From: an uncultured Candidatus Saccharibacteria bacterium
GTDB taxonomy: Bacteria > Patescibacteriota > Minisyncoccia > Phycocordibacterales > PALSA-1337
Direction: 5' to 3'
Assembly: GCA_964542675.1 (NCBI GenBank)
Contig: CAZIUH010000003.1
Location: 8,932 to 64,208, forward strand
DNA: 55,277 nucleotides
Program-made: the position numbers and the translations under genes
Shown here: piece by piece, positions 33,436 to 55,143 of the stretch
Layout of the letters: each line of letters starts with the position of its first letter
How positions within the stretch are numbered: the first letter of the stretch is position 1
Notes under the pieces: model-generated
Databases searched by the model: none
Told to the model about the DNA's origin: nothing
What the model saw: only the letters and a program-made list of their open reading frames with translations

Positions 33436-33594
33436 CCCGGAATCACAACAAACAAAGCATGTTTTTCAAGACGAGGACTGCGATTGTCTCGCGGTCTTAG
33501 GATGATGTATAAAAAACAACATCTGAATAAATATTGCATCAATAGGAACAGTTCCGCAGTTTTGAAAAACATGCTTTGTTTGTTGTGATTCGGG
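33436..33594 (+). repeat. palindromic element family 1, copy A
   Basis: Arms gaatcacaacaaacaaagcatgtttttcaagac / gttttgaaaaacatgctttgtttgttgtgattc; core 33473-33558 GAGGACTGCGATT...ATAGGAACAGTTCCGCA. Confidence 0.9.
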
Positions 33595-33596
33595 TA

Positions 33597-34352
33597 TTAT
33601 TTCTTCGCGTATTGTCTGCGTATGACTAATTCCTGTGCAAGAGTAAATAATGCGCTCACGGACCAGTATAATGCGATAATAGACGCCACCTGAGGAAATT
33701 TCAAAGGAATCAACCAATAAGTTGAGGCGAAAGCCAAAATCGGCAACATATATTTCATCTGTTTATTCATGGACGCCGCGAAGTCCAATGGGGGAGTACC
33801 TGTAACATGATTATTCGTCGTTACGGCTTTGAATTGTTTCGACGCCAGAGAATATTTGAGTTGAACATATTGAGCAATCGCGGTAACTATCGCCAAAACA
33901 AGGCTTGGTGTTGTCAAATCTATCAATCCCAAAAATTGCGTCTTCACCATAGGAATAGAAACAAATGAATACAAATATTCCGGGTTGATTGTTGGTATTA
34001 TTTTATAAAAAACGGAAAGTAGTGCTAGCAATATCGGCAATTGAATGAAAAGAAGTAAGATTCCTGAAAACGGTTTTATGCCTTTTGCTTTATAAAGCTC
34101 CATAACCTTAAGAGCTTGCGCTTGCCGATCGTTCGCGTACTGCGCTTTTATTTGATTCGACTCAGGTTCTATCTCTTTCATTCTGATCTGTGTTAGTATC
34201 GACACCTTTGAGAGATGAAATAGCGCCAACTTCACAATAATGGTGAAAATAATAACGGCCAATCCAACGTCAATCCAAGGCAAAATGTCCATAACACTCA
34301 CCAAACCGTTATATAAAGGTAAAAAAATAAAATTATGATACAAATATGTCAT
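33597..34352 (-). CDS. yidC: YidC/Oxa1 membrane protein insertase
   Basis: GLAVIIFTIIVKL, MELYK..GIKPFSG.LLLFIQLPI, LYWSVS; synteny with rnpA-rpmH-dnaA. Confidence 0.93.
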   Translation of the reverse strand: MTYLYHNFIFLPLYNGLVSVMDILPWIDVGLAVIIFTIIVKLALFHLSKVSILTQIRMKEIEPESNQIKAQYANDRQAQALKVMELYKAKGIKPFSGILLLFIQLPILLALLSVFYKIIPTINPEYLYSFVSIPMVKTQFLGLIDLTTPSLVLAIVTAIAQYVQLKYSLASKQFKAVTTNNHVTGTPPLDFAASMNKQMKYMLPILAFASTYWLIPLKFPQVASIIALYWSVSALFTLAQELVIRRQYAKK

Positions 34353-34383
34353 TTATTGTTTGCAACTTACAAATTATCGTCTA

Positions 34384-34734
34384 TTAATCGCCGTTTACAG
34401 CCTTCATCAGCTTGGATTTTATGAGCAAATCTTTGAGAGCAGTCCTGATAGTTTCAAATTTATAATCTTTCAAATCGCTCTTAGAGAAGATAATAACATG
34501 AACACCGGAAATAACGGAGGGGAATAATTCTCTTATAACACTATACAACCGCCGTCTTGCCCTATTACGCGCCACGGCCGTCTTCGCGACCTTCACAGGT
34601 GCTACGGCAGAAATACATGTATTTGGTTGATTCAACACATATCGCAAAACAAAAAGGGGGGAACTTATAACTTTCCCTTTCTTTATCACTTCCAATAGCC
34701 GTTTAGTTGTCAGTCTATTAGACTTTTTCAACAT
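34384..34734 (-). CDS. rnpA: ribonuclease P protein component
   Basis: MLKKSNRL, KVAKTAVARNRARRR (RNR motif). Confidence 0.93.
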   Translation of the reverse strand: MLKKSNRLTTKRLLEVIKKGKVISSPLFVLRYVLNQPNTCISAVAPVKVAKTAVARNRARRRLYSVIRELFPSVISGVHVIIFSKSDLKDYKFETIRTALKDLLIKSKLMKAVNGD

Positions 34735-34735
34735 A

Positions 34736-34870
34736 TTAAACTGTTACACGATACCTGCCTTTAGCTCTGCGCCTCGCAACGGCCTTTTTCCCACCAGGCG
34801 ATTTCATTCTAGCGCGAAATCCATGCGTCTTGGCGCGTTTTCTTTTGTTTGGTTTGTATGTGAATGACAT
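34736..34870 (-). CDS. rpmH: 50S ribosomal protein L34 (not in the ORF track)
   Basis: Manual translation [44 protein letters not shown]. Confidence 0.97.
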
Positions 34871-34918
34871 GACTAGGAAATTATTACATCTTTTTTATTT
34901 TTATGCAAGATAAAAGAG

Positions 34919-34977
34919 TTCTCCACAACTTATCAACATATTTTATGCCTCTCCACAAGTTCCCAGATTTATAAACA
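34919..34977 (+). promoter_or_regulatory. degenerate DnaA-box cluster upstream of dnaA
   Basis: ttctccaca 34919, ttatcaaca 34930, ctctccaca 34949, ttataaaca 34969. Confidence 0.75.
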
Positions 34978-34998
34978 GGTATATACTAGAAACACCTT

Positions 34999-36345
34999 AT
35001 GAATGAATATTCTCAAATTTGGCAGACCGCGCTGATCGAAATACAGTCGATTGTTTCCCCAGCGAATTATTCCACTTGGGTCAAAACTACTCGTATTGTC
35101 CGTGAGGAGGAGGGGGTGGTATTCCTTGGCGTACCAAATGAATTCACCAGGGAATGGTTATTCAAGAAATGTCACAACTCAATTCTGCGCATATTAAGAC
35201 AGCTGAACGAACGTGTACGTGCCCTAGAATATGTTGTTTTGAAAGAGGATGAACAAAAACTCGACGGAGGAAAGAAGGGTTTGGCCATGGCGCCGACGCT
35301 TTCTATACCCCTAGAAAATTTCTACGTAAACAAAGATGATAATCTCAATTCCCGCTACACATTCGAAAATTTTGTGGTCGGACCATTCAACGAAATCGCT
35401 CACGCCGCCGCGCAAACAGTTGTGAAAGCGCCGGGGCAGGCATACAATCCGTTCTTCGTGTACGGAAGGACGGGTGTCGGAAAAACTCATTTGATCCAAT
35501 CTATAGGCAATAAGATTAAGAATTTGTTCCCTAACAAAAAAGTATATTATCTAACCGCGGAAAAATTCGGATCCGATTTTTTCGACTCGTTACAGATCAA
35601 CAAAGCTCAACAATTCAAGGAAAAATACCGTAAATACGATGTTCTTATAATGGATGATGTTCAATTTTTCGGCAGCAAGGAAAAATTCCAGGAAGAATTT
35701 TTTCACTTATTCAATACTTTTTATGATACCGCTCGCCAACTCATTTTTTCGAGCGATAGACATCCGAATATCATTCCGAATTTGGAAGATCGCATACGAA
35801 GTCGTTTCAGCACCGGTATGGTTATTGATATCGCTGAATTAGACAAAGAGTCTAGAATGGCTATAGTTAGAGCCAAATGCCAGCCTCATAGCATTACTCT
35901 AACTGAAGAAATAATCGATTATCTTGCTTCTGAGGTTGAAGAAAATATCAGAGAAATAGAGGGTATAGTCAACATTATCGCTCATAATACCCAATACAAA
36001 GGTAGGGAGCTTAACTTAAATGAAATAAAAACCATCATCAAAACAAACGCTCGACCGAAGAAAATGCTTTCCGTTAAAGAAGTAGTGAAAATCGTCTGCG
36101 ACTTTTACAATATAGACGAGAATAGTATATACAACAAGACTCGAAGGAAGGAAATTGTGAAACCGCGCCAAGTGGTTATGTACATCCTGCGTGAAGATTT
36201 TAGTATTTCATTTCCATCTATTGGAGACAAACTGGGTGGACGTGATCATACGACAGTCATTCACTCGTATGAGAAAGTAAAAGAAGATTTGAAGACTAAT
36301 AACTTATTATCAGAAGAAGTATCACGCATACGGACAATGTTATAA
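34999..36345 (+). CDS. dnaA: chromosomal replication initiator DnaA
   Basis: YTFENFVVG, YNPFFVYGRTGVGKTHL, MDDVQF, RIRSRF, GGRDHTTVIH. Confidence 0.98.
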   Translation: MNEYSQIWQTALIEIQSIVSPANYSTWVKTTRIVREEEGVVFLGVPNEFTREWLFKKCHNSILRILRQLNERVRALEYVVLKEDEQKLDGGKKGLAMAPTLSIPLENFYVNKDDNLNSRYTFENFVVGPFNEIAHAAAQTVVKAPGQAYNPFFVYGRTGVGKTHLIQSIGNKIKNLFPNKKVYYLTAEKFGSDFFDSLQINKAQQFKEKYRKYDVLIMDDVQFFGSKEKFQEEFFHLFNTFYDTARQLIFSSDRHPNIIPNLEDRIRSRFSTGMVIDIAELDKESRMAIVRAKCQPHSITLTEEIIDYLASEVEENIREIEGIVNIIAHNTQYKGRELNLNEIKTIIKTNARPKKMLSVKEVVKIVCDFYNIDENSIYNKTRRKEIVKPRQVVMYILREDFSISFPSIGDKLGGRDHTTVIHSYEKVKEDLKTNNLLSEEVSRIRTML

Positions 36346-36585
36346 AAAATTTTATGTGGAAATCATGTTAATAAAAATGTATTACTTGGGTAAAATATGA
36401 ACGCAAAAAACAAATATAAATTTAAATGAATAAATTAAACATGTTGTTAGTAAAAAAATAATTATAAATATTCAAAAATACTAATATTTAACCACTGTTT
36501 TTCAACTTATCAACATATTCACTCCCTTAATAACAATAAAGAGTTATATAAAAAATAATTATTAACACTAACACTATTATATTAT
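36346..36585. other. oriC: probable oriC (AT-rich dnaA-dnaN spacer with degenerate DnaA boxes)
   Basis: Very AT-rich; tgtggaaat 36355, tgttaataa 36366, ttatcaaca 36507, ttattaaca 36559. Confidence 0.75.
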
Positions 36586-37695
36586 ATGAAACTTGAATTA
36601 CATTTTCAGGATTTTAAAAAAGCAGTACTATTATCGGAAAAAATTGCCGGTAAACATATGACTTTACCTGTATTGTCATGCCTTCTTTTTGATGTGAAAA
36701 AAGGATCTCTTCATATAAAAGCAACAAACCTTGATCTTGGTATAGAGACAATAATATCGGCAAAGTCGGATACTGAAAACGTTTTTGCCATTCCCGCCGC
36801 GATTTTGTCCGCGTTCCTGTCCCAAATAAGCGATTATGACGGGGTTATTCGGTTGGAGTCTGTATCGGGAAATATACAAATAAACACATCAAAATCAAAA
36901 GGAGTGATAAAAACCGTGCCACATGAAGATTTTCCAAGTATTCCCGAGGTGACAAATGAACGAAAAGTTCAATTAACATCCGATATTATCGTAAAAGGGT
37001 TAAAATCCGTATGGTATAGCGCGTCAGTTTCTAGCGTCAAACCAGAATTATCTAGTGTTTATGTTTATACGCAGAACAATCATCTTATTTTTGTGGCTAC
37101 AGATTCATTTCGTTTGGCTGAGAAAAAACTTAATTTACCCACAGCCACAATAGTTGGGGACATTTTGATTCCATTCAAAAATGTCGCCGATATGATACGA
37201 ATACTTGAATCAACCACGGAAACAATTACGATCGAAATGAATAAAAACCTTATTTCCTTTGAAGTTCCGGGCAAAATCCGCATAATATCTCGAGTTATTG
37301 ATGGGGTATTTCCAGATTATAAACAGATTATCCCCAAATCATATACAACCGAAATTATCGCTTTGAAACAAGACCTTTTGAACGCGCTCCGAATATCAAA
37401 TGTTTTTTCGGATAAATTCAATCAAATACATTTGACGGCTGATCCGAAAGGTAAACTATTTGAGGTACAAACAAAAAATAGCGATATTGGCGAAAATAAA
37501 ACGACCATAGATGCCGCCGTGACGGGCGATAGGGTAGAAATCAATTTCAATTACAAGTATGTGGTAGATTGCTTCCAATCTATCGATGCTGATAGCGTTT
37601 CTCTTCAACTGGGAGGCACAAATAGGCCGATGGTCATACGCCCGGTGTCCGGAGATCAATCGTTTATGTATTTGGTTATGCCCATGAATCGTTAA
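36586..37695 (+). CDS. dnaN: DNA polymerase III beta sliding clamp
   Basis: ATNLDLGI, VATDSFRLAE, SRVIDGVFPDYKQIIP, YLVMPM. Confidence 0.97.
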   Translation: MKLELHFQDFKKAVLLSEKIAGKHMTLPVLSCLLFDVKKGSLHIKATNLDLGIETIISAKSDTENVFAIPAAILSAFLSQISDYDGVIRLESVSGNIQINTSKSKGVIKTVPHEDFPSIPEVTNERKVQLTSDIIVKGLKSVWYSASVSSVKPELSSVYVYTQNNHLIFVATDSFRLAEKKLNLPTATIVGDILIPFKNVADMIRILESTTETITIEMNKNLISFEVPGKIRIISRVIDGVFPDYKQIIPKSYTTEIIALKQDLLNALRISNVFSDKFNQIHLTADPKGKLFEVQTKNSDIGENKTTIDAAVTGDRVEINFNYKYVVDCFQSIDADSVSLQLGGTNRPMVIRPVSGDQSFMYLVMPMNR

Positions 37696-37956
37696 ATGTT
37701 CAATATATCTCAATTTTTAAATAGAATACGCGGTACTCAAGGAAAACAAATACTTCAAAGAAACATTGTGCGTAATGTCGTGCTAAAAAATATTGGCATT
37801 GATATTCCCGCAGAAAATATCACGATAAAATCAGCTGTAATTTTTTTGAATAATATTTCACAATCCGCGAAATCGGCTGTGTACGTGAAAAAACAAATTA
37901 TTTTGAATGAGATTAATAAAGGGCAAGATACTATAATTGTCCGAGATATTAAATGA
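37696..37956 (+). CDS. small protein, possibly DciA/DUF721-like
   Basis: Abuts the dnaN stop; pattern S.SAKSAVYVKKQIILNEIN...IVRDIK. Confidence 0.5.
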   Translation: MFNISQFLNRIRGTQGKQILQRNIVRNVVLKNIGIDIPAENITIKSAVIFLNNISQSAKSAVYVKKQIILNEINKGQDTIIVRDIK

Positions 37957-37978
37957 TGAGATTGTTCCACGCAATTCG

Positions 37979-40507
37979 CTATTTAGCAATTGAAAAGTTC
38001 GCTACTGCCTGGCCCTTATTGGAAACACTGTCATATACAATAACGGATAGAGAGTTGCTGGACTCATTCAAATTACCAACATCAACCGGCAGAAATGAGA
38101 AATTTAGAGGATTAGTAATAGCGGTCAGAACAAATTTTCCATTCAGATAAACTTCGGTTTTTTGCGCGGGATACGCGCCGTCTAGTTTCAATTGTACCGA
38201 TAAAATTTCTTGAGGATTTATCAGTGAATCAGTAACTGGAGAAACGATCGTGATTTTAGGAACTTTTTCCGGTGTGTGAACATCATCCGTTTCGTTCGGA
38301 ATAATCATAGTGCCCGTTACTTCTTGGAAATTCGGGTGTGAAATCATATATTCCGTTAGCCAATTGCGGATGCCGTATTCCCAATTCGCATATTGAGAAT
38401 CTTGCTCTGGGTTCGTTGGGGCGGGTCCCGTTGGATCGTCTTTTCTTACCCAATGCAAAATTGTATGTACGCTATTGAATACAACTTCCTGTTTCAATTC
38501 TGCCGGCGTATAATCCGTGGCCAATTTTCCTGATATTTTATCTTTCCAATAAGACAAACCACCCCACCATATACCATGCAAAACGGGCTTGTTATCCGTC
38601 TTTGTCACTGGTGGAGATTGGAAATTTTCAACAGGGAGAATCTTCACCGCCTCTGACATGAACGCGCCCCACAATGGCGTTATGATAAGACCGGCGACAT
38701 TATGTTGCATCGGTCTATTGTCGTTGTTTCCGGCCCATGCTCCCACAACCAAATTGGGAGCGTAACCCATGGTCCAGACATCTCGATAATCATTCGTGGT
38801 TCCAGTTTTGATGGCAATTTGTCTGCCGACATTATCAGCGATTGGCTTCAAACTGGCCATACGTACCTTGGTATCCGATAATATATCGGATATTTGTCTG
38901 GAAATTTCCGGAGCTAGCACTTGAACAGGATTTATTTTTGCCTCTTCCAATACAATTTTGTTGCCGTCTTCAACCTTCAATACGGATCGATAAGGATTGC
39001 GAATGCCGTCGTTGGCGAATACTCCATATGCGCTAGTCATATCAAGTAAGGAGACTTCACCACCGCCCAAGACCAGAGTAAGTCCATATCGATTCGGGTC
39101 TGTAAGAGTGGTAATGCCCAAATCTTCGGCAGTTTGTATGGAATCGGGTATTCCCGACAAATATAATGCTTTCACGGCGGGAATGTTTCTTGATTGTGCC
39201 AATGCCTGACGAATTGTGAGTGGTCCCTCGAATATATTGTCATATTCAACGGGGGAATAGCATATTTTTGTCGCGTCGGCGCGTGGATTTTTCGTTTTAC
39301 CTTCTGGCGTGCACTCCGATGAAAATTCAGTGTTAACATCAAACAGTATGGTTTCCGGCGTATAGCCTTTTTTGAACGCGGTCGCATAAACGAATGGCTT
39401 GAATGTGGAGCCCGGTTGCCTCTTCGCCAAAGCAACATTATAATTCCCGTCAATTGTCTGATCGAAATAATCTTTCGATCCAACCAAAGCGAGAATATCT
39501 CCCGTTTTCGGATCAATGGCGACCATCGCGGTATTGCTAGCATTGAAATTTTCCGCAAGCGAAGGGCCAAACTTCGCAATCGTCTGCTCCATTTTCTGTT
39601 GCATGTCGTAATCGAGTGTTGTTATGATGTTCAGACCGTTCTGACTGACAACATCTTCACCGTATTTTTGTACTAAATAATCTTTTACCATCATAACGAA
39701 GTGGGGAGCGCGTATGCCAGCGCTATTTTTTGACAAGAATTGAACTTTCTCCTGTTGGGCCGTATTGAATTCTTCATCTGATATAACATCGGTATCTTTC
39801 ATTCTTTGTAGAACCAATTGTTGTCTAGCATTTAATTCATCGCGATGTGTTCCGTATGGGGAATAATATGTCGGTGCTTGGGGAATGGCGGCCATGTAAG
39901 CGGCTTCGGCTAGTGTCACATCTTTAACAGGTCTTCCGAAGAATGCTTGGCTAGCCTCTTCAGCGCCGTAAATAGTGCCACCGTAAGAGATTTCATTGAA
40001 ATATGCCTCCAGAATTTGGTCTTTTGTCATTACTTTTTCCAGTTTTATCGCCAAAACCAATTCTTTGATCTTTCTCGTTATAGTCTTATCTTGAGTTAAT
40101 AGAGAATTTTTAACAACTTGCTGAGTAATGGTTGATCCTCCCTGATTAACCTTGCCACTTAGTAGATTGTCGATCGCGGCCCGCAAAATGGCAGTTGGAC
40201 GAAAACCGAAATGAGTATAAAAGTCCGAATCTTCTATGGCGATAGTTGCTTTTTGGAGGTTTGGAGAAATATCTGATAAAGGAATAACAGTTCTTTTTAC
40301 ATCAGTATTCACATCATAAAGAAGAATAGTGCCGGTACGATCATATATTTTTGTCGACTGAGTGACGACGCGCGTGGCAAAAGTATTTAGGTCGGGCATT
40401 TGCAGAGTTGCTACCCATAACGCGCCGATGCCTATACACAAGAAAAATGCCGAAAAGGCAAGAAAAACAAGCGAACGTATGAATCTTCTTTTTTTATGTC
40501 GAGACAT
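37979..40507 (-). CDS. class A penicillin-binding protein (PBP1A family)
   Basis: Glycosyltransferase motifs EDSDFYTH, GGSTITQQ, RKIKE; transpeptidase STFK, SRN, KTG; C-terminal Ig-like domain. Confidence 0.95.
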   Translation of the reverse strand: MSRHKKRRFIRSLVFLAFSAFFLCIGIGALWVATLQMPDLNTFATRVVTQSTKIYDRTGTILLYDVNTDVKRTVIPLSDISPNLQKATIAIEDSDFYTHFGFRPTAILRAAIDNLLSGKVNQGGSTITQQVVKNSLLTQDKTITRKIKELVLAIKLEKVMTKDQILEAYFNEISYGGTIYGAEEASQAFFGRPVKDVTLAEAAYMAAIPQAPTYYSPYGTHRDELNARQQLVLQRMKDTDVISDEEFNTAQQEKVQFLSKNSAGIRAPHFVMMVKDYLVQKYGEDVVSQNGLNIITTLDYDMQQKMEQTIAKFGPSLAENFNASNTAMVAIDPKTGDILALVGSKDYFDQTIDGNYNVALAKRQPGSTFKPFVYATAFKKGYTPETILFDVNTEFSSECTPEGKTKNPRADATKICYSPVEYDNIFEGPLTIRQALAQSRNIPAVKALYLSGIPDSIQTAEDLGITTLTDPNRYGLTLVLGGGEVSLLDMTSAYGVFANDGIRNPYRSVLKVEDGNKIVLEEAKINPVQVLAPEISRQISDILSDTKVRMASLKPIADNVGRQIAIKTGTTNDYRDVWTMGYAPNLVVGAWAGNNDNRPMQHNVAGLIITPLWGAFMSEAVKILPVENFQSPPVTKTDNKPVLHGIWWGGLSYWKDKISGKLATDYTPAELKQEVVFNSVHTILHWVRKDDPTGPAPTNPEQDSQYANWEYGIRNWLTEYMISHPNFQEVTGTMIIPNETDDVHTPEKVPKITIVSPVTDSLINPQEILSVQLKLDGAYPAQKTEVYLNGKFVLTAITNPLNFSFLPVDVGNLNESSNSLSVIVYDSVSNKGQAVANFSIAK

Positions 40508-40940: not shown

Positions 40941-41092
40941 CGCGAACAAGGACACAAATAATTTCCTCGTGGCGAGGACTGCGATTGTCACGCTGTCACA
41001 AGGAGATGTACAACAAATAATCGTTGATTATCGTTTATGGTAATAGAAACAGTTCCGCAGCCACGAGGAAATTATTTGTGTCCTTGTTCGCG
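40941..41092 (+). repeat. palindromic element family 1, copy B
   Basis: Perfect 33-bp arms cgcgaacaaggacacaaataatttcctcgtggc; core 40974-41059 GAGGACTGCGATT...ATAGAAACAGTTCCGCA. Confidence 0.9.
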
Positions 41093-43819: not shown

Positions 43820-43825
43820 GGAGGT

Positions 43826-47274: not shown

Positions 47275-47302
47275 TATTTTTCAATTAGTGTAAAATGTGT
47301 GC

Positions 47303-49852
47303 ATGGCCAAGAACCATACCGGTAAAAAGAAAAGACTAATACTGTTGGACGCGCACGCTATCTTGCATCGCGCATATCATGCTTTGCCGGATTTTTCTAC
47401 AAAAAATGGTGAGCCGACAGGCGCGCTTTATGGTCTTTCGGCTATGCTCATAAAAATCATTGAGGATTTGAAACCCGATTATATTATCGCTTGTTATGAT
47501 GTAAAGGGTCCGACATATCGGCATGAAGCGTACAAAGAATACAAAGCGGGACGTAAAGCCGCCGAAGACGATCTTATCGCGCAGATGAAAAGTTCGCGGA
47601 GGATTTTCGAGGCGCTCAATATTCCAATTTATGATAAACAAGGGTTTGAAGCTGATGATGTTATAGGTACGATTGTAGAAAATCTGAAGGATGATAAATC
47701 CGTGGAAACAATAATAGCTTCAGGCGATATGGACACCATGCAACTCATTCGTGGCGACGATGTGAAAGTCTATACTCTGAAAAAGGGAATAAACGATACG
47801 ATAATGTATAACGAGAAGGCGGTCCGTGATCGTTTCGGTTTCGGGCCGGAACTCATCGCGGATTATAAAGGTTTGCGTGGTGATCCTTCGGATAATATTC
47901 CAGGCATCAAAGGAATCGGCGAGAAGACGGCGACGATTCTGATTTCAAGTTTCGGTACCATAGAAAACGTATACCATGAATTGGAATCCGGTCACGGAAA
48001 GGGTGGAGACGTGAAATTCGAAAAGGCCGGAATAAGCCCGCGTCTCATTCAGGTTCTGAAAGATAATAAAGAAGAAGCGGAATTCAGTAAAACTCTAGCG
48101 ACAATTCGAAAGGATGTGCCGATTGATTTCGTTTTGCCGGAGAAAACATTCAAGGAAAACTTCGATGTGAAGAAGATCGATGAATTGTGGCGTGAATTGG
48201 AGTTCCGGACATTGCCGCAGAGGTTGGAGAAGGTTATCGGAGTTTCGAACAGTTCGGCGAATGGAAGCATCGCGCCTGCAGGTCTTGCAAACACAGTTTC
48301 TGTGGACACGCCGTCGACGTCATTCGCCACAAACGAAACCATGGCAAACGACGTCGCGTCTGGTTCTCGCCTCCGTCCTGGTGGGGAAATGCAAGGGGAT
48401 TTACTCGACGAAGGCTCCGAAGCGTCCACAGAAACCGTGTTTGCAAGACCTGCAGAGCGTGAAGAATTCGAAAAAGTCGCTATTGCGCGTTGGATCATAG
48501 ATTCCAATATTACAAATCCGCAAATGAAGGATATTTTGCGTTTTGCCGATACGAAAGATTTCGAAGTTGCCAAGAAAGCTGTTTTCGAAGAATTGAACAA
48601 GAAAGATTTGCGGAAAGTTTATGAAAAAATAGAACTGCCTCTCATTCCCGTCGTTTATAAGATGGATAAAAAAGGAATCAAAATAGATAGAAATTTTCTG
48701 AAGAAATTATCGAAAGAATATCATTCGGTCATTGAAAGTTTGGAAAAGAAAATATGGAATGAAGCTAGCGGAGAATTCAATATCAATTCGCCGAAACAAT
48801 TGGGCGAATTTCTCTTTGACAAGCTCGGACTCAAGGTGAAGAATCAGAAGAAAACGGCGGGCGGGGCGCGTTCAACGAAAGAATCGGAATTGGAAAAAAT
48901 GCGCGACATGCATCCGGTTATCCCTATGATTTTCGAATACCGCGAATTGGCGAAACTGCTTGGTACCTATATTGACGCGATTCCGCCCTTACTAGATTCA
49001 AACGATCGGCTTCATACGCATTTTCTCCAAGCTGGCACGACGACTGGCAGAATGGCTTCACAGGAACCGAATTTACAGAATATTCCGGTGAAATCAGAAC
49101 TGGGTCGGGCGATTCGAAAAGCGTTTATTGCCGACAAAGGATTCAAGCTTGCCGCTTTGGATTATTCACAAATTGAATTACGCATTGCCGCCTTTTTGTC
49201 CGGTGATGAAAAGATGATAGATATTTTCCGGAAAGGAGAAGATGTGCATACTTCGGTGGCTTCATTCGTCTTCAATGTCTCTTTGAAAGACGTGACTCCG
49301 GAAATGCGCCGTCAGGCAAAAGTGATAAATTTCGGAATAATTTACGGCATGGGTGTTCTGGCTTTGAAACAAAATCTTGGTTCGACCCGCGAAGACGCGC
49401 AGAAATTCTTGAATGATTATTTCAATACTTTTTCAACTCTGGCGCGGTACTTGAATGACGTGAAGGCGGAAACGGCCAAGAAAGGGTATACGGAAACATT
49501 ATTTGGGCGCAGGCGATACTTTGAGGGGATTAATTCCCATATTCCATATATCAAAGCGCAGGCGGAAAGAATGGCGATCAATGCACCTATCCAAGGGACG
49601 GAAGCGGATATTATCAAGCTGGCTATGATCCGTATCGATGAATACTTGAAGAATACCAAGCTCGAAGATATTGCATTTCCTCTATTACAAGTGCATGATG
49701 AATTGGTTCTGGAAATTCAGGAGGACCGGGCTGAGGAAATCGCGCGTGAGATCAAGAAAATTATGGAAAGTGTCGTTGATACAAAAGAGACAAAAGGAAT
49801 TGTTTTGACAGCGCAGATACATATCGGCGATAATTGGGGAGAATTGAAATAA
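47303..49852 (+). CDS. polA: DNA polymerase I
   Basis: 5'-3' exonuclease (HRAYHA, EADD, GDPSDNIPG), polymerase motifs DYSQIELR, KVINFGIIYG, QVHDEL; 3'-5' exonuclease region short and degenerate. Confidence 0.96.
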   Translation: MAKNHTGKKKRLILLDAHAILHRAYHALPDFSTKNGEPTGALYGLSAMLIKIIEDLKPDYIIACYDVKGPTYRHEAYKEYKAGRKAAEDDLIAQMKSSRRIFEALNIPIYDKQGFEADDVIGTIVENLKDDKSVETIIASGDMDTMQLIRGDDVKVYTLKKGINDTIMYNEKAVRDRFGFGPELIADYKGLRGDPSDNIPGIKGIGEKTATILISSFGTIENVYHELESGHGKGGDVKFEKAGISPRLIQVLKDNKEEAEFSKTLATIRKDVPIDFVLPEKTFKENFDVKKIDELWRELEFRTLPQRLEKVIGVSNSSANGSIAPAGLANTVSVDTPSTSFATNETMANDVASGSRLRPGGEMQGDLLDEGSEASTETVFARPAEREEFEKVAIARWIIDSNITNPQMKDILRFADTKDFEVAKKAVFEELNKKDLRKVYEKIELPLIPVVYKMDKKGIKIDRNFLKKLSKEYHSVIESLEKKIWNEASGEFNINSPKQLGEFLFDKLGLKVKNQKKTAGGARSTKESELEKMRDMHPVIPMIFEYRELAKLLGTYIDAIPPLLDSNDRLHTHFLQAGTTTGRMASQEPNLQNIPVKSELGRAIRKAFIADKGFKLAALDYSQIELRIAAFLSGDEKMIDIFRKGEDVHTSVASFVFNVSLKDVTPEMRRQAKVINFGIIYGMGVLALKQNLGSTREDAQKFLNDYFNTFSTLARYLNDVKAETAKKGYTETLFGRRRYFEGINSHIPYIKAQAERMAINAPIQGTEADIIKLAMIRIDEYLKNTKLEDIAFPLLQVHDELVLEIQEDRAEEIAREIKKIMESVVDTKETKGIVLTAQIHIGDNWGELK
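48276..48455 (-). mobile_element. 180-bp in-frame palindromic insertion within polA
   Basis: 32-bp arms ctgcaggtcttgcaaacac(a/g)gtttctgtggac at 48276-48307 and 48424-48455; inner hairpin cgacgtc..gcca/tggc..gacgtcg. Confidence 0.75.
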
Positions 49853-49866
49853 TTCTCGAACGCAGT

Positions 49867-50028
49867 TCGCCCGCAAACAAAGACAATATTATTTTTTGGA
49901 AGACTACGGAACTGTTCCTATAGTTTATTATGAAAGTTTGGTTAGATTGTTATACAGAATCCTGAGACAGAGTGATGAATCGCAGTCCTCGTCTTCCAAA
50001 AAATAATATTGTCTTTGTTTGCGGGCGA
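49867..50028 (-). repeat. palindromic element family 1, copy C
   Basis: Perfect 38-bp arms tcgcccgcaaacaaagacaatattattttttggaagac; core 49905-49990 reads GAGGACTGCGATT...ATAGGAACAGTTCCGTA on the minus strand. Confidence 0.9.
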
Positions 50029-50047
50029 TAGGATGTATAATGGAAAA

Positions 50048-50560: not shown

Positions 50561-50616
50561 AAAGATCCAAAAAGGAAAAGTATGAATTTTTTTGAGACTT
50601 GCGCTACAATACGGCA

Positions 50617-51357
50617 ATGCTATATGTATATCACGGATCTGATATTCAAAAAGGACTGGAGAAATCACACAGTCTGGTAAATTCATTGCGTGCGAAAAAA
50701 CCAAATGCGATTTTTGTCGCTATAGACGCGGATCATTTCACCTCGTCGGTTATTGAGGAACATCTGGGCGGTCAGGGATTATTTTCCAATAAGTACATCA
50801 TTCTTCTGGATCGTGTAACGGAAAACAAGGATGTCAAAGATATTTTACCTGATTACATTCCGGCAATGAAAGAATCCACGAATATTTTCATTGTCCATGA
50901 AGGCAAACTAAATGCGGAACTTGCGAGATTATTCCAGAAATATGCCGAGAAAGTTATTCTCTGCGAAGAAGTGAGTAGTGACGGTTCTTTTAATAAGAAA
51001 GATTTCAGTGTATTCGCACTCGGTGACGCGCTGGCGTCTCGAGAACCATTCAAGGCTTGGATTCTATATAGACAGGCGGTGGATAAAGGGATAGGAAGCG
51101 AAAGTATTCTCGGCACATTATTTTGGCAAATGAAGTCGGTTAAAGTTGTGTCGCAAGTCGAGACTGCGAGAGAAGCCGGGCTCAATCCTTTTGTCTTCGG
51201 GAATTGCCGACGGTTCGCGCGGAACTTCTCGGAAAAGGAATTGAATGGCTATATTTCCGACTTGATCACCCTATACCACGATGGTCACCGAGGGCTCGCG
51301 GATATCGAAATCGGGTTGGAAAAGCTTGTCCTCAATTGCGGAAAACCTAAATTGTGA
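50617..51357 (+). CDS. holA: DNA polymerase III delta subunit-like
   Basis: LYVYHG, GLFSNKYIILL, VFALGDAL, GLNPFV pattern. Confidence 0.7.
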   Translation: MLYVYHGSDIQKGLEKSHSLVNSLRAKKPNAIFVAIDADHFTSSVIEEHLGGQGLFSNKYIILLDRVTENKDVKDILPDYIPAMKESTNIFIVHEGKLNAELARLFQKYAEKVILCEEVSSDGSFNKKDFSVFALGDALASREPFKAWILYRQAVDKGIGSESILGTLFWQMKSVKVVSQVETAREAGLNPFVFGNCRRFARNFSEKELNGYISDLITLYHDGHRGLADIEIGLEKLVLNCGKPKL

Positions 51358-51429
51358 TAATCTGTCAATGCATGGGGAATAGTCGTTTGTGATGAAAAGT
51401 GAACAGTATCTGTAAACGGGAAAATAAAT

Positions 51430-51503
51430 GCGCCCATAGCTCAGCCCGGTAGAGCACCTGCCTTTTAAGCAGAGGGTCGTTGGTTCGAATCCAACTGGGC
51501 GCA
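51430..51503 (+). tRNA. tRNA-Lys(TTT), CCA not encoded
   Basis: GCGCCCATAGCTCAGCCCGGTAGAGCACCTGCCTTTTAAGCAGAGGGTCGTTGGTTCGAATCCAACTGGGCGCA folds as a cloverleaf. Confidence 0.95.
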
Positions 51504-51599
51504 CAGAAATATTGAAAACGATATAATATCAAAACTAGACGGAAAGAGTTAAACTATTAGTAAATTGTCGGAGTTTACGAATAATAAATATTCAATAAC

Positions 51600-51914
51600 A
51601 TGCCATCAGAAGAAACGATTAAACCAACGCCGGAAAATAAGACCGGAGACGAGATCGAAAACGAAGGAAAATTCGGCAGTAATGAAAAAATAGAAAAAGA
51701 ATTGACCCCGGAAAATGTTCAATACTATATCGAGCAGGGCAAGCCGATTGATGTGAAAGTGAAGGGTTCGACAGGGGAAAATGAAGAGGGTTGGTTTGTG
51801 TCAAAAGTTGATTTGGCTGCTGGATTGGCACGAGTATTTAGACCAGGTGAAAATGGTGAAAAACCACAAGAGAAAAAAGTGCCACTAGAAGACTTGGAAA
51901 AGTGGAACGAATAA
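51600..51914 (+). CDS. hypothetical protein
   Basis: 104-aa acidic ORF, VKVKGSTGENEEGW...KKVPLEDLEKWN. Confidence 0.7.
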   Translation: MPSEETIKPTPENKTGDEIENEGKFGSNEKIEKELTPENVQYYIEQGKPIDVKVKGSTGENEEGWFVSKVDLAAGLARVFRPGENGEKPQEKKVPLEDLEKWNE

Positions 51915-51943
51915 TCAACCGGTGATATCGGTTTACAAATATT

Positions 51944-52312
51944 TTACAATGGCATATCAAATGCCATTTTCCCCGCGCCTGTCGCCATGAGAGAAATTGC
52001 CATGACAAGAAGGAGAACATAATAATTCACACCATCTGTGAATAGTTCTTTGTTCTTTGCTTTGAGAACGAGTTGGACTATAAGAACAATCGCGATAATG
52101 AGTGCGGCAAGTTGGGTATAAAGACCGATCAAAATGAAAATTGCGACAAGAATCTGAGCAAAACCGTAAAGCATGTTATTCATACCAGAATTTTTGTTGC
52201 GTCCAACCAGTCTTCGATACCCGAAATAAACTATGGTAATACCGAGGACAAGACGAATGATCAAGGGAGAGAATTCCTGATATGATAAAAGGGATGGGAA
52301 TAATGAAAGCAT
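51944..52312 (-). CDS. DoxX family membrane protein
   Basis: LIIRLVLG, LIGLYTQLAAL, TGAGKMAFD. Confidence 0.8.
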   Translation of the reverse strand: MLSLFPSLLSYQEFSPLIIRLVLGITIVYFGYRRLVGRNKNSGMNNMLYGFAQILVAIFILIGLYTQLAALIIAIVLIVQLVLKAKNKELFTDGVNYYVLLLVMAISLMATGAGKMAFDMPL

Positions 52313-52345
52313 GGTTGTTATATTATATGTTAATGTGGGTATTAT

Positions 52346-52828
52346 ATGATAAAACGAATAACATATCTAATCCTTGACAATATTCGCAGTGTCTATAATA
52401 CCGGATCTGTATTTCGCACGGCGGAGACGCTTGGTATTTCCAAGATTTTTTGTGTTGGGACAACGCCCACGCCGATCGATAGATTCGGTCGTAAAAGAAG
52501 CGATTTTGCCAAAGTTGCTCTGGGCGCGGAAAATTCAATCTCCTGGGAACATATTGATAACGCGCGCGGGCTTATTGAACAACTAAAGAAGGAAGGATTT
52601 GAAATAGTCGCATTGGAACAGGCTGAAAGATCGGTTGATTACAAAACAATCAAAAAAGGTCGAGGGAATAAAATGGCAATAATTCTCGGTAATGAAATTG
52701 AAGGCGTTTCAAAATCACTTCTGAAAATGGCAAATATTATTGCGGTGATCCCAATGAAAGGGAAGAAAGAGTCCTTGAATGTTTCTGTTGCCGCGGGGGT
52801 TTTTCTTTATCGATTGCTGGATAATTAG
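52346..52828 (+). CDS. TrmH/SpoU RNA methyltransferase
   Basis: LDNIRSVYNTGSVFRTAE, LGNEIEG, IPMKGKKESLNVSVAAG. Confidence 0.92.
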   Translation: MIKRITYLILDNIRSVYNTGSVFRTAETLGISKIFCVGTTPTPIDRFGRKRSDFAKVALGAENSISWEHIDNARGLIEQLKKEGFEIVALEQAERSVDYKTIKKGRGNKMAIILGNEIEGVSKSLLKMANIIAVIPMKGKKESLNVSVAAGVFLYRLLDN

Positions 52829-52854
52829 CTTATTAACAAATACATAAGTCGGGA

Positions 52855-53793
52855 TTATCTGCTCAACTTCTGATGTTTATCGCAGAAATGCGCGCTTCTC
52901 GCGCCGATAACTATTCGCGTAATAATGCCGCCACAGCCGCGTTTGGCGCATTTTGTTCCAGTTTTCTGATACGCATAGTGTTGTTCCTGGAATCCACCTT
53001 TTTCACCATGGATGTTACGGTAATCGGACATGGAATCTCCACCGAAATCGATCCCTCTTGAAAGTGTTTGTTTAATAGCTCTGAATAAAGCTTTCAATTT
53101 GGCGGTTGATATATTATGCACATGTTCAAGCGGATTGATATCCGCGCGCCAGAGCGATTCGTCGGCGTAAATATTCCCAATCCCGGCGATTATTTTTTGA
53201 TCCGTGATAACTTGTTTCACTTTTCCATTCAAGCGTAATAATAATCGTGTCTTGAACTTCTCATAAGTAAAAATCCTTTTTAACGGTTCTGGCCCAATAT
53301 TTTTCAAGTGTTCACTTTCATTCATTCGTCTTGAATCAACCAGGGTAACCTTGGCAAACTTCCTTAAATCAGAAAGCGCCAACCGTTTTCCGTTGGAAAA
53401 AGTCAGGACAAAATGAATATGCCTATTAAAAGGGTCTTTCAGCGATTCTGGTTTTATTGGTATCCAAATTCTCTCAAGGTTTTTCTCGTTTTTTGGGGGA
53501 GAATTAAACTTATATTCGCCGTAAAGTAAATGCCCGGTCATCTTCATATGAATCAAAATAATCTTATTGCCATTTAAATAAATGAGAATATTCTTCGCGC
53601 GGCGACTCACACTGATAATTTTTTTTCCGATAATTTCATTCTTGAAATATAAGAAATATTTTGGGTCCTTGATATTTCCGGAACCGGTGAAATACGCGCT
53701 ATTGTAATCCGACCAGATGTCGGAAATACGAAGCCCGACCACAGTGCGAGTGAGTCCATTCACGGTTGTTTGTACCTCAGGAAGTTCAGGCAT
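52855..53793 (-). CDS. mutM: formamidopyrimidine-DNA glycosylase Fpg
   Basis: MPELPEVQT, HMKMTG, AGIGNIYADESLW, C-terminal zinc finger. Confidence 0.95.
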   Translation of the reverse strand: MPELPEVQTTVNGLTRTVVGLRISDIWSDYNSAYFTGSGNIKDPKYFLYFKNEIIGKKIISVSRRAKNILIYLNGNKIILIHMKMTGHLLYGEYKFNSPPKNEKNLERIWIPIKPESLKDPFNRHIHFVLTFSNGKRLALSDLRKFAKVTLVDSRRMNESEHLKNIGPEPLKRIFTYEKFKTRLLLRLNGKVKQVITDQKIIAGIGNIYADESLWRADINPLEHVHNISTAKLKALFRAIKQTLSRGIDFGGDSMSDYRNIHGEKGGFQEQHYAYQKTGTKCAKRGCGGIITRIVIGARSAHFCDKHQKLSR

Positions 53794-53807
53794 GTTAGAA
53801 TATTACC

Positions 53808-55067
53808 ATGCGTTATTATCTTATTGTTCTTTCTCTTATCCTTTTGCTCGGTTTGCCGTGGTTTTCGGTCAATTATCCGGATCAGATGCAAAATCTAAAA
53901 CTGTCAATCGCTTATTTCGTAGATCAGATCGCCGCCGTTGTCATGCATAATCCGCGTACCATTGCTGGACTACAATCGAAATATAACGTGGCAACGTCGC
54001 GAAGGCAAGAAAAAATAAGAATACTGCTCGTGCCGGGACATGAGCCAAGTTACGGTGGCGCGGAATTTGGTTCTATCAAAGAGCGTGACTTGAATGTTGA
54101 ACTGGCGAATGATTTGGAGCAAATCCTCGCGAATAATAGCAAATATCAAGTCTTAGTGACGCGAAGCACGACAGCATGGTCTCCGGAGTTCTCGGATTAT
54201 TTCAGTAATTCATGGCAGAATATCATAGATTGGGTCAAAGTGTATCAACAGGAATCTCTGAAACTCATATCAGTCAACTCCACCAATGGAAAACCAAGGA
54301 TATATCATAACACGGCCCCGCGGAATGTTGCGCTACGCCTGTATGGCATCACGAAATGGTCGAATGAGCACAATATTGATATTGCCATTCATATTCACTT
54401 CAACGATAATCCGGGACATTCATCAAATACGCCCGGCAAGTATAGCGGTTTCACTATTTACGTGCCGGAAAAAAATTATATGAATAGCACAACGACGCAA
54501 GCGATCGCACAGACGGTTTATGAACGACTTTCGAAATACAATCCGATTAGTGATTTGCTCGGCGAATCAAGTGGCATCACGTATGAACCTGACTTGATAG
54601 CGATCGGCGCGAACAATACGGCCGATGCCGCAAGCATGCTTATTGAATACGGTTATATTTATGAATCTCAATTTACAAATCCGGCCTTACGAGACCTTAC
54701 TTTAAAAGATTTGGCGTTTCAAACATATCTGGGTTTGCAAGATTTCTTTGATCCGAGCAATGCCATAAGTTTGGCGAAGTCATATGACACATTAGTCTTG
54801 CCGCATGAATGGCGATCGTTGATTGACGTCAGAAGTAATTCTTCACGGGATGTTTTCGCTCTACAAACCGCATTTATTTCCGATGGATTGTATCCTCCGG
54901 TTCCAAAAGATTTGAATGATTGTCCGCGTACGGGCACATTGGGACCATGTACGAAAGCGGCGCTAAGTGAATTTCAGAAAAAGTACGGAATTACGGGTGA
55001 AAATGGAATAGTTGGTCCGAGAACTTTAGAGATTTTGAATCAAACATTCGGCGTTAGGGTGAACTAA
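53808..55067 (+). CDS. N-acetylmuramoyl-L-alanine amidase with C-terminal peptidoglycan-binding domain
   Basis: VPGH, KERDLN, IHIHFN, LIEYGY; GPCTKAALSEFQKKYGI...GIVGPRT. Confidence 0.85.
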   Translation: MRYYLIVLSLILLLGLPWFSVNYPDQMQNLKLSIAYFVDQIAAVVMHNPRTIAGLQSKYNVATSRRQEKIRILLVPGHEPSYGGAEFGSIKERDLNVELANDLEQILANNSKYQVLVTRSTTAWSPEFSDYFSNSWQNIIDWVKVYQQESLKLISVNSTNGKPRIYHNTAPRNVALRLYGITKWSNEHNIDIAIHIHFNDNPGHSSNTPGKYSGFTIYVPEKNYMNSTTTQAIAQTVYERLSKYNPISDLLGESSGITYEPDLIAIGANNTADAASMLIEYGYIYESQFTNPALRDLTLKDLAFQTYLGLQDFFDPSNAISLAKSYDTLVLPHEWRSLIDVRSNSSRDVFALQTAFISDGLYPPVPKDLNDCPRTGTLGPCTKAALSEFQKKYGITGENGIVGPRTLEILNQTFGVRVN

Positions 55068-55086
55068 AATCCGCTTATCCCAAGTA

Positions 55087-55143
55087 TTCGTAACAATCGC
55101 GCAGTCCTCGCTTTGAAAAATATGACTTCCTATTGGTCGCGGG
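55087..55143 (-). repeat. palindromic element family 1, partial copy D
   Basis: Reverse complement ...atttttcaaagc-GAGGACTGCGCGATTGTTACG; second half absent. Confidence 0.6.

What the first reader, a model, noticed from the sequence alone, without database searches (positions are those of the whole stretch)
33436..55143. Candidate new element family: fixed 86-nt core closed by copy-specific, self-complementary arms
Seen: three full copies (33436-33594 +, 40941-41092 +, 49867-50028 -) and a half copy (55087-55143 -). Each full core is exactly 86 nt and reads GAGGACTGCGATT...GTC...AGGA..TGTA....A...ATAG(G/A)AACAGTTCCG(C/T)A, with GGACTG able to pair with CAGTTC. The 33-38-bp arms differ strongly between copies (gaatcacaacaaacaaagcatgtttttcaagac; cgcgaacaaggacacaaataatttcctcgtggc; tcgcccgcaaacaaagacaatattattttttggaagac), yet each is a perfect or near-perfect inverted repeat. 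All lie just past stop codons of core genes (yidC, ruvC, polA, murE). This is the reverse of classical MITEs, which have conserved ends and variable middles. Inference: a non-autonomous element or ncRNA recognised as a folded single strand, whose arms are actively homogenised or templated from each other, mobilised in trans by an unidentified enzyme. Four copies in 22 kb suggest many more genome-wide.
Basis: partly seen in the sequence, partly recalled or inferred. Interest (0 to 1): 0.85.

Follow-up and report, generated by a model that had tools for sequence, protein, structure and literature searches.

The report
Hairpin repeats with copy-specific arms
A short non-coding insert found at gene ends in a tiny-genome lake bacterium keeps a fixed middle while every copy has its own pair of matching arms; this design is not in the RNA catalogue I searched, and what moves it and what it does are unknown.

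Summary
The window holds three full copies and one half copy. The 629-kb genome holds 8 full copies, each with an 85-86-nt core closed by 33-38-bp arms. All 33 arm pairs covary (99.6% paired; 0 of 500 shuffles reach this). Arm sequences are barely more alike than shuffled ones (0.53 vs 0.45).

It is an insertion. A relative's orthologous yidC site is empty, with no palindrome there. There is no target duplication and no Rfam match.

It is the local variant of a wider family. The junction arm-C|GAGGACUG...AGUUCCGCA|G-arm recurs across the genus: an 18-nt 5' motif occurs in 52 of 92 genomes. A 20-nt apical module also occurs in Ralstonia megaplasmids and viral contigs. In short forms its apex fits the "mini-hairpin DNA" consensus.

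In one relative, six copies have 97-100% identical cores but near-unrelated arms, so core and arms evolve separately.

Folding is strand-specific: the sense strand is more stable in 33 of 39 elements.

Best reading (about 0.5): a non-autonomous hairpin element read as a folded single strand by an unknown trans factor, with cores spreading between copies. RNA or ssDNA is undecided and no enzyme was found. New variant of a known kind; interest 0.65.

The parts
33435..33472 (+). copy 1, 5' arm (pairs with 33559-33596; one bulge near the outer end, one G-U)
33473..33558 (+). copy 1, 86-nt core (GAGGACUGCGAUU ... AUAGGAACAGUUCCGCA)
33559..33596 (+). copy 1, 3' arm; it abuts the stop codon of yidC (33597-34352, -)
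40941..41092 (+). copy 2: arm 40941-40973, core 40974-41059, arm 41060-41092; 19 nt from the ruvC stop
49867..50028 (-). copy 3: 5' arm 49991-50028, core 49905-49990, 3' arm 49867-49904; 38-bp perfect arms; 14 nt past the polA stop and upstream of tsaE
55087..55145 (-). half copy: family-type 5' arm (about 55110-55145) plus the first part of the core with a 2-nt insertion. The rest is replaced by the 3' end of an amidase gene (53808-55067, +). No partner arm exists.
296..461 (+). another member of the superfamily, of the type common in relatives: 29-bp arms, a 108-nt loop beginning GCCGAGAACUUGUUUGAAUGG and ending GAGUCUCGCAGGA, with a long inner hairpin

Best explanation
The copies are non-coding DNA insertions of one family, here called family A (8 full copies in this genome). 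Family A belongs to a superfamily of hairpin-closed elements common in this small-genome genus. The unit is arm - core - arm'.

When the sense strand is single-stranded, the arms zip into a 33-38-bp helix. That helix presents a fixed junction and the core behind it. The junction is an internal loop GA/GCA followed by the helix GGAC-U-G : C-A-G-(U)-UCC.

I propose that a factor acting in trans reads this junction and apex, not the arms. The arms only have to pair, so they drift freely. A change in one arm is either lost or matched. The matching comes from selection on foldability, from template switching within the hairpin, or both.

Cores spread among resident copies by gene conversion or by re-insertion. 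This puts identical cores between unrelated arms.

Shown: the fold, its strand asymmetry, insertion versus an empty site, decoupling of core and arms, absence of target duplication, and the distribution.

Inferred: the trans factor, how the arms are kept matched, how cores spread, and whether the folded strand is DNA or RNA. I lean slightly to DNA, because the apex of the short relatives fits a DNA mini-hairpin consensus.
For: (1) Fold. 33 of 33 arm pairs covary, 99.6% of cells pair, and 0 of 500 shuffles reach this. Slid controls give 41-50% paired. The fold z-score is -11.9.

(2) Strand asymmetry.
- In the 8 copies, the arm exceptions are 6 G-U/U-G against 1 C-A.
- Among 39 distinct superfamily elements, the sense strand folds better in 33 (full element) and 31 (core alone). 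Wilcoxon p = 2e-6 and 2e-4.
- Some subfamilies keep a 1-nt bulge on the 3' arm only.

(3) Insertion.
- G087 has the two convergent genes abutting, with no element and no palindrome at the yidC site.
- Its close kin G085 has a different inverted repeat there.
- No direct repeat longer than 3 nt flanks any of the 8 copies.

(4) Core and arms are decoupled. Shuffled-arm identity is given in brackets.
- G067: 6 copies, core identity 0.99 (0.97-1.00), arms 0.56 (0.47).
- G000: core 0.72, arms 0.53 (0.45).
- G060: core 0.77, arms 0.61 (0.48).
- In G060, inner-arm types cut across core types (by reading).

(5) A conserved reading module.
- The 18-nt 5' motif occurs in 52 of 92 other genus genomes, at 1-11 per genome, with controls near 0. 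It occurs in 3 genomes of 3 other families among 400 of the class.
- A 20-nt apical module closed by unrelated helices occurs in 6 viral contigs of GC 0.43-0.65. It also occurs in 130 Ralstonia plasmid records.
- 6 of 8 distinct short apices fit GCGN(1-2)AGC, against a shuffled rate of 0.013. This is the 'mini-hairpin DNA' consensus (PMC13037366; abstract and passages read).

(6) Position. Elements lie at gene 3' ends. Only 1 of 24 elements is in a divergent (promoter) context.
Against: No candidate enzyme was found.
- The genome's only Y1 transposase frame stops at 78 aa.
- Across the genus, Y1 and the motif give 30 both, 22 motif only, 18 Y1 only and 22 neither. This is my hand count; the odds ratio is about 1.7.
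- The copy-rich genomes G060, G067 and G043 have none.
- 6 intact Y1 loci carry no motif.
- No TnpB zinc ribbon, Y2 transposase or Rep_trans was found. The Y2 control rang nowhere, so that blank says little.
- The only reverse transcriptase sits next to an Avd gene, as in diversity-generating retroelements.

Other points against:
- Only one empty site was seen, and it is in a genome whose genes are 78% identical, so the ancestral state is uncertain.
- All 8 family-A copies are old (cores 63-80% alike) yet keep near-perfect arms. Only one decayed copy exists. This fits selection on resident copies, that is a host function, better than pure selfish spread.
- Family A itself lacks the mini-hairpin apex and was found in this one population only.
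- Wobble asymmetry is weak in relatives: 9 G-U type against 5 A-C type.
- The energy asymmetry was not corrected for base composition or for kinship among copies.
- No link exists to local GC skew: 5 copies lie on the G-rich side and 5 on the C-rich side.
- The Ralstonia pattern count alone is not above its control. The case there rests on the hairpin context.
Confidence: 0.5

Rival explanations
1. The element is a structured RNA with a host function. It is transcribed, the long perfect helix is cut by RNase III (as with rRNA or phage T7 processing stems), and a small RNA is released. That RNA carries the conserved junction as a protein handle and the variable interior as its specific part. 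Alternatively the hairpin marks and protects mRNA 3' ends between closely packed genes.
For: - All resident copies keep near-perfect helices even though cores have diverged about 28%.
- Exceptions are almost only G-U on one strand.
- The sense strand folds better in 33 of 39 elements.
- Apical loops of GNRA type appear in short relatives.
- An RNase III gene is present.
- Elements fill the gaps at gene ends exactly; 6 of 8 face the stop of a convergent gene.
Against: - No consistent promoter-like site lies in or before the three window copies. Counts are not above shuffles.
- Orientation is not tied to flanking transcription: 5 antisense against 4 sense in tandem contexts.
- No U-run follows the helix. 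The T-run lies inside the 5' arm, the opposite polarity to this genome's ordinary terminators.
- The site is empty in a relative.
- Triloop apices of the GNA kind are the DNA-type stable form (PMC13037366; PMC3201870 by abstract only).
- No Rfam family matches.
Confidence: 0.27
2. Only the core, with a few inner base pairs, is mobile. It inserts into the centre of palindromes already present at gene ends (terminator-like hairpins), so the arms are target DNA.
For: - Identical cores sit in unrelated arms in G067.
- There is a sharp change from shared inner arm to unrelated outer arm in G060 and G306.
- Known insertion sequences that target hairpin loops exist (recalled, not tested).
Against: - The one empty site has no palindrome.
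- Among 41 inverted repeats with exact arms of 16 bp or more in this genome, none with a short loop has the arm polarity (T-run left, A-run right). The short-loop ones are A-run/stem/T-run terminators of 8-11-bp stems.
- Arms carry family-wide features: a T-run 6-8 nt from the core and, in 4-5 of 8 copies, CGCRAAC at the outer end.
Confidence: 0.08
3. The elements are single-strand DNA signals rather than mobile DNA: hairpins that stay free of single-strand-binding protein and recruit a primase or polymerase on exposed DNA. Known analogues are the priming sites of phage G4 and plasmid ssi signals, which carry mini-hairpins.
For: - The apex fits the mini-hairpin consensus in 6 of 8 short forms.
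- The review reports such motifs at the G4 primase site, at ssiA and at N4 promoters (passages read).
- The module occurs on viral contigs and megaplasmids.
Against: - Family A lacks the mini-hairpin.
- Element strand shows no relation to local GC skew.
- The site is empty in a relative.
- Copy number varies from 0 to 11 among kin, which is odd for a replication function.
Confidence: 0.05

Closest known systems
REP sequences and REPINs moved by RAYT (Y1 HUH) transposases
   Same: Short, non-coding and multi-copy. They sit at gene ends, form long hairpins and are thought to be read as folded single strands. A Y1 transposase family is present in about half of the genus.
   Different: In REPINs the arms are the conserved, recognised part, alike genome-wide, and the middle is a short spacer. 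Here the arms are near-unrelated and the middle is conserved. Neither Y1 presence nor Y1 position tracks the element.
Bacterial MITEs and ERIC/Correia-type intergenic repeats
   Same: Size (about 150-165 bp), inverted ends, no coding capacity, intergenic position, and presence/absence between relatives.
   Different: No shared terminal inverted repeats and no target duplication. No parent insertion sequence with the same ends was seen. Each pair of arms stays perfectly matched, whereas MITE ends decay independently.
Integron attC sites and other recombination sites read as folded single-strand DNA
   Same: Each copy is its own imperfect palindrome. Recognition is by shape plus a few fixed bases and is strand-specific. 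They sit directly after stop codons.
   Different: In attC the fixed bases are at the outer ends and the centre varies (recalled). Here the centre is fixed. The genes are core genes in both orientations, not cassette arrays. No integrase link was tested.
Origin hairpins of rolling-circle replicons and single-strand initiation signals (G4 origin, ssiA) with mini-hairpin DNA
   Same: A conserved loop is presented by a stem whose sequence is free. The apex fits GCGNAGC/GCGNNAGC as in PMC13037366.
   Different: Those are single sites on phages and plasmids next to their Rep or primase genes. Here there are 8-11 chromosomal copies at gene ends, no Rep gene was found, and family A has no mini-hairpin.
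RNase III processing stems (rRNA operons, phage T7 early RNA)
   Same: A long helix formed by flanks closes a functional middle. RNase III is encoded.
   Different: The helix is not attached to any known RNA. No promoter or transcript evidence exists. The helices are perfect rather than interrupted.

Membership tests
Any Rfam 15 family | Covariance-model match at or near the gathering score | tested here: not met
   The whole window at gathering gave tRNAs only. Copy 1, five relatives' loci, 14 other hairpin loci and the Ralstonia copy were scanned at E up to 0.1-10. Only plant or animal microRNA-precursor models hit, far below their cut-offs, which means a generic long hairpin.
MITE | Terminal inverted repeats shared by the copies of a family | tested here: not met
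   Left-arm identity among the 8 copies is 0.53, against 0.45 for shuffled arms. Core identity is 0.72.
MITE | Direct target-site duplication flanking each copy | tested here: not met
   The longest direct repeat at the boundaries of the 8 copies is 0-3 nt.
MITE | A parent insertion sequence with the same ends and a transposase | tested here: inconclusive
   No copy of the end motifs flanks a long insert in the loci examined. The genome shows only a truncated Y1 frame. The genome is 95.7% complete and repeats break assemblies.
REPIN / RAYT system | Arms are copies of one REP sequence conserved genome-wide | tested here: not met
REPIN / RAYT system | A Y1 (RAYT) gene that co-occurs with, and is flanked by, the repeats | tested here: not met
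   30 both, 22 motif only, 18 Y1 only and 22 neither among 92 genomes (hand count). No motif lies within 6 Y1 loci of relatives or the own locus.
Integron attC | Conserved core sites at the outer ends with a variable centre | tested here: not met
   The centre is conserved and the arms vary. 4-5 of 8 outer ends share CGCRAAC/GTTYGCG, which I could not equate with the attC core sites (consensus recalled, not tested).
Integron attC | Lies in a cassette array next to an integron integrase | not tested
   The flanking genes are yidC, ruvC, polA and tsaE, in both orientations. No integrase search was run.
Intrinsic (rho-independent) terminator | A G+C-rich hairpin directly followed by a U-run | tested here: not met
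   No terminator-like site coincides with the arms in the three copies. The T-run lies inside the 5' arm.
Mini-hairpin DNA motif (GCGNAGC / GCGNNAGC) | The motif stands at the apex of the element | tested here: not met
   For family A of this window, no such motif is visible in the 8 aligned cores (by reading). It is met in 6 of 8 distinct short apices of relatives, Ralstonia and viral contigs.
Superfamily defined here (arm-C|GAGGACUG ... AGUUCCGCA|G-arm) | Both junction motifs directly abut complementary arms | tested here: met
   8 of 8 family-A copies, with one or two substitutions in the C1 and C20 copies. 21 model hits in 9 other genus genomes show the same junction.

The most novel reading that the evidence does not exclude
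The arms are not inherited but made anew at each insertion. The mobile unit is the core plus a few inner base pairs. Integration copies some 20-30 nt back across the core by fold-back (template-switch) synthesis. The result is an inverted duplication in place of the direct target duplication of ordinary transposition. The 20-nt apical module with its DNA mini-hairpin is shared with Ralstonia megaplasmids and viral contigs. It would then be the landing pad of a widespread, still unknown enzyme that works on single-stranded DNA.
Probability: 0.12. Interest if true: 0.9.

Novelty: new variant of a known kind. Interest (0 to 1): 0.65.

Why it matters
Bacterial dispersed repeats are normally recognised by conserved ends. 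This family inverts that pattern: a fixed junction and apex with arms that are free in sequence.

It offers three things if the reading holds.
- A case where shape, not sequence, of 30-40 bp is maintained at every copy.
- A natural experiment on how long perfect palindromes survive and co-evolve in a minimal genome.
- A short module (20 nt, with a hyperstable mini-hairpin) shared across phyla and viruses, which points to an unidentified single-strand-reading factor.

There is also a practical consequence. Such hairpins break short-read assemblies of small-genome bacteria, so their number and their effect on genome structure are underestimated.

Tried and rejected
- Known RNA families: none found.
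- Papers. Searches on Patescibacteria or candidate phyla radiation with inverted repeats or MITEs, on conserved-loop/variable-stem repeats, on Ralstonia repeats, and on four strings of the module itself found nothing describing this element. The string hits were eukaryotic 5.8S rRNA primers (listing only). One preprint (10.1101/2023.09.22.558884) was read in passages and is unrelated. Supplements were closed and not seen. The library lacks most subscription journals.
- Arms as guides: arms match nothing else in the genome beyond 14-16 nt, about the chance level. Arms were not tested against viral collections.
- Internal promoter: I saw a TTGTCA-18-TATAAC-like pair in the consensus core, but the scan tool did not report it in the three copies and counts were not above shuffles. 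I dropped it.
- Replication-strand bias: none seen.
- Enzymes: Y1, TnpB, Y2, Rep_trans and RT gave no link.
- Expression: no RNA holder was listed.
- Population variation: laying contigs of four lake-water DNA runs showed the same strain, no joint skipping an element, and contigs ending in the arms.
- Recent empty sites. G067 has no close kin among 92 genomes; the best is 71% identical. The G085 element's site in G087 falls exactly at two contig ends, so it is uninformative.
- Family-A pattern in metagenome contigs: only this organism, plus one chance hit.
- Neighbours of the module on viral contigs: 9 of 10 proteins had no Pfam family and one is a tape-measure protein.
- E. coli genomes: only chance coding hits.
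- The single genome-contig scan was wasted on a pattern that was too loose (119+ chance hits in unrelated phyla). The organism's name and the module's distribution over all species therefore remain unknown.
- murE identity: not settled.

Full report
Reading the four places shows three complete elements and one truncated one at the stated coordinates. Each complete element has an 86-nt core that begins GAGGACUGCGAUU and ends AUAGRAACAGUUCCGYA. The core lies between two arms that pair without gaps over 33-38 bp. The genome that holds the window has 628,756 bases in 25 contigs, about 41% G+C, and is rated 95.7% complete. It carries 8 full copies by nhmmer (E 4e-21 to 1e-15) and nothing else but two weak partial hits. 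On the alignment of the 8 copies, all 33 arm pairs change on both sides and 99.6% of cells pair. None of 500 shuffles reaches the observed values, and sliding the partner by 1-3 columns drops pairing to 41-50%. Left arms of different copies are 0.53 identical, against 0.45 for shuffled arms. Cores are 0.72 identical. The copies are not an assembly artefact. Identical copies stand in independent metagenome contigs, and a contig of another run spans copy 1 without a difference.

CONTEXT.
Pfam names the neighbours yidC, ruvC, polA and tsaE. The elements fill the gaps at gene ends almost exactly, with 5-19 nt to the nearest stop. Six of the 8 copies face the stop codon of a convergent gene with their 3' arm. 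In the three tandem contexts of this genome, the element is antisense to both neighbours. Over 24 superfamily elements with flanks, the right neighbour is convergent in 16 of 22. Tandem contexts split 5 antisense to 4 sense, and only one element lies between divergent genes. The half copy has a typical 5' arm and the start of the core. It then runs into the 3' end of an amidase gene and has no partner arm anywhere.

IT IS AN INSERTION.
In G087, whose genes are about 78% identical in DNA, the two convergent genes at the yidC site abut, with no element and no palindrome. G085, about 93% like G087 in the flank I read, carries a different inverted repeat at the same place. No direct repeat longer than 3 nt flanks any of the 8 copies.

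IT IS A LOCAL VARIANT OF A MUCH WIDER FAMILY.
A covariance model of the 8 copies found 21 further elements in 9 of 92 other genomes of the genus. They share with family A only the junction: arm-C|GAGGACUG at the 5' side and AGUUCCGCA|G-arm at the 3' side. They also share a T-run 6-8 nt before the core. Their interiors differ, ranging from 30-41-nt cores to cores of 92-166 nt with a long inner hairpin.

Their 18-nt 5' motif, allowing up to 2 mismatches, occurs in 52 of 92 genus genomes at 1-11 copies, with backward-read controls near zero. Of the 30 loci I inspected, 6 lacked the 3' motif (five are coding look-alikes, one has a variant 3' motif) and 3 had short or decayed arms. In a sample of 400 genomes of the class, 4 outside the genus matched with up to 1 mismatch. 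One of these is a coding look-alike, leaving 3 genomes of 3 other families. All sampled genomes are small, 0.4-1.9 Mb, which together with the lake-water origin fits a candidate-phyla-radiation lineage. That placement is inference; I could not name the organism.

The window genome itself has two members of the common type, at window 296-461 and at C7:2711-2872. The family-A core pattern was found in metagenome contigs only in this same organism.

A 20-NT MODULE REACHES BEYOND THE PHYLUM.
The shortest cores read GAGGACUGUCUGAGCGAAGCGAGUUCCGCA. Their inner 20 nt, CUGUCUGAGCG(A/C)AGCGAGUU, stand at the tip of helices of unrelated sequence in several places. One is 6 viral contigs with G+C of 0.43-0.65. 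Another is Ralstonia megaplasmids, in 130 of the 156 plasmid records that matched. In strain GMI1000 there are four copies arranged as two inverted pairs, each at the apex of a hairpin of about 45 bp.

The plain pattern count in that record is not above its control, so the argument rests on the hairpin context. E. coli genomes have only chance coding hits. Six of 8 distinct short apices fit GCGN(1-2)AGC, against 1.3% of shuffles. A 2026 review (PMC13037366; abstract and passages read) describes GCGNAGC/GCGNNAGC as 'mini-hairpin DNA'. The review calls it extraordinarily stable as single-stranded DNA and reports it at the primase site of phage G4, in plasmid ssiA and in phage N4 promoters. Family A has no such apex.

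THE FOLD IS STRAND-SPECIFIC.
In the 33-bp frames of the 8 copies, the exceptions to Watson-Crick pairing are 6 G-U/U-G and one C-A. On the other strand these would be six mismatches. In relatives the bias is weaker, 9 G-U type against 5 A-C type, plus 7 other mismatches and 5 gaps among 594 pairs. Some subfamilies keep a one-base bulge on the 3' arm only. Folding 39 distinct elements in both senses gives the sense strand the lower energy in 33 (full element) and 31 (core alone), with p = 2e-6 and 2e-4. This test is not corrected for composition or for kinship. It shows that one strand folds on its own. It does not show whether that strand is RNA or DNA.

CORE AND ARMS EVOLVE SEPARATELY.
In G067, six copies have 98-nt cores that are 97-100% identical. 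Their arms are 0.56 identical (shuffled 0.47), and each pair is complementary. In G306, three copies share the 30-nt core and 7 inner arm pairs and then differ completely over about 38 further perfect pairs. In G060, inner-arm types cut across core types (by reading). In G047 the opposite is seen. Eleven copies are near-identical in core, arms and some flank, many lie at contig ends, and they form part of a larger composite repeat. One older copy there shows a clustered, compensated 3-nt change in the arms.

Point mutation with compensation cannot give unrelated arms around identical cores. One possibility is that cores spread between resident hairpins, by gene conversion using the conserved junction motifs or by re-insertion. 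Another is that arms are produced at insertion. A third is that cores enter pre-existing palindromes. The third is disfavoured for two reasons. The empty site has no palindrome. And none of this genome's 41 long inverted repeats with a short loop has the arm polarity; those are ordinary A-run/stem/T-run terminators.

WHAT MOVES OR READS IT IS UNKNOWN.
The genome has one Y1 (IS200/RAYT-type) frame that stops after 78 residues. Across the genus, Y1 and the motif overlap no more than loosely: 30 both, 22 motif only, 18 Y1 only, 22 neither, by my hand count. The copy-rich G060, G067 and G043 have none, and six intact Y1 loci carry no motif. No TnpB zinc ribbon, Y2 transposase or Rep_trans was found. 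The only reverse transcriptase lies beside an Avd gene, as in diversity-generating retroelements. RNase III is encoded. No promoter-like or terminator-like site coincides with the three copies above the shuffle level. Element strand does not follow local GC skew. No RNA run was listed.

VERDICT.
This is a non-coding insertion that works as a folded single strand, with a fixed junction and apex and free arms. No Rfam family matches it, and the features that define MITEs, REPINs, attC sites and intrinsic terminators were tested and not met.

I rate 'non-autonomous hairpin element read by an unknown trans factor, with cores spreading among copies' at about 0.5. A host RNA function gets about 0.27, because every old copy keeps perfect arms. 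Core-only insertion into palindromes gets about 0.08, and a single-strand DNA priming-type signal about 0.05.

It is a new variant of a known kind (dispersed hairpin repeats). The unusual points are the inverted conservation pattern, the identical cores in unrelated arms, and a cross-phylum 20-nt module with a DNA mini-hairpin. The limits are one distant empty site, no expression data, no enzyme, no closed genomes, and a literature check confined to open-access text without supplements.

Noticed in passing
window 48276-48455 (inside polA, 47297-49852 +); also G000 C1:103854-104037: A different long inverted repeat (19-27-bp exact arms extended by imperfect pairing, 130-142-nt loop) lies in frame inside polA, between the 5'-3' exonuclease and polymerase domains. 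Its paralogue lies in frame in a 986-codon ORF. Both encode a similar stretch of about 60 aa (GAN[TI]VSVDTPSTS ... GSEASTET). This resembles the in-frame palindromic elements of Rickettsia (recalled).
   Followed up: partly
G000 C6:19046-19203, C2:5352-5484, C5:18804-18941, C3:5703-5837 (outside the window; the window starts at C3:8932), C25:1618-1794, C7:22331-22485, C5:8891-9066, C2:34802-35005, C14:6528-6724: At least 9 further long inverted repeats (21-46-bp arms, 65-142-nt loops) have other core families. Four share attgccRgaggcataac. Several sit in frame inside long ORFs (1050, 797, 626 and 361 codons). None has an Rfam match.
   Followed up: partly
window 26660-26732 (C3:35591-35663); G085 at the yidC site (L184): A REPIN-like repeat whose 23-24-bp arms each contain a small hairpin (TTCCCGC GAAA GCGGGAA type). 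A relative carries the same kind of repeat at the site where this genome has copy 1.
   Followed up: no
window 29328-29365 (C3:38259-38296); C7:12784-12818: Two related perfect palindromes with no spacer or a 1-nt spacer (17-19-bp arms), which is unusual for bacterial DNA.
   Followed up: no
G000 C1:34540-38202 (L186): A 419-aa reverse transcriptase lies beside an Avd-like gene: a likely diversity-generating retroelement.
   Followed up: partly
G000 C7:18-254 (-): An IS200/RAYT-type Y1 transposase frame stops after 78 residues, just past the HUH region, close to a contig end.
   Followed up: partly
Ralstonia pseudosolanacearum GMI1000 megaplasmid NC_003296.1, about 302.7-303.1 kb and 756.9-757.3 kb: Two unannotated composite structures of about 450 bp. 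Each has two hairpins of about 45 bp in inverted orientation carrying the 20-nt module at the tip, inside a further outer inverted repeat. The locus is conserved in 130 Ralstonia plasmid records.
   Followed up: partly
G047 C46:24900-28200 (L235) and ten other G047 loci: Eleven near-identical short-core elements are embedded in a larger composite repeat of nested hairpins. Several lie at contig ends, so these repeats fragment the assembly.
   Followed up: partly
window 40947-40962 versus G000 C4:13831-13846: A 16-nt exact match links the arm of copy 2 to a distant site (BLAST E 0.003 for that query). I judged it near chance over 9 arms.
   Followed up: no
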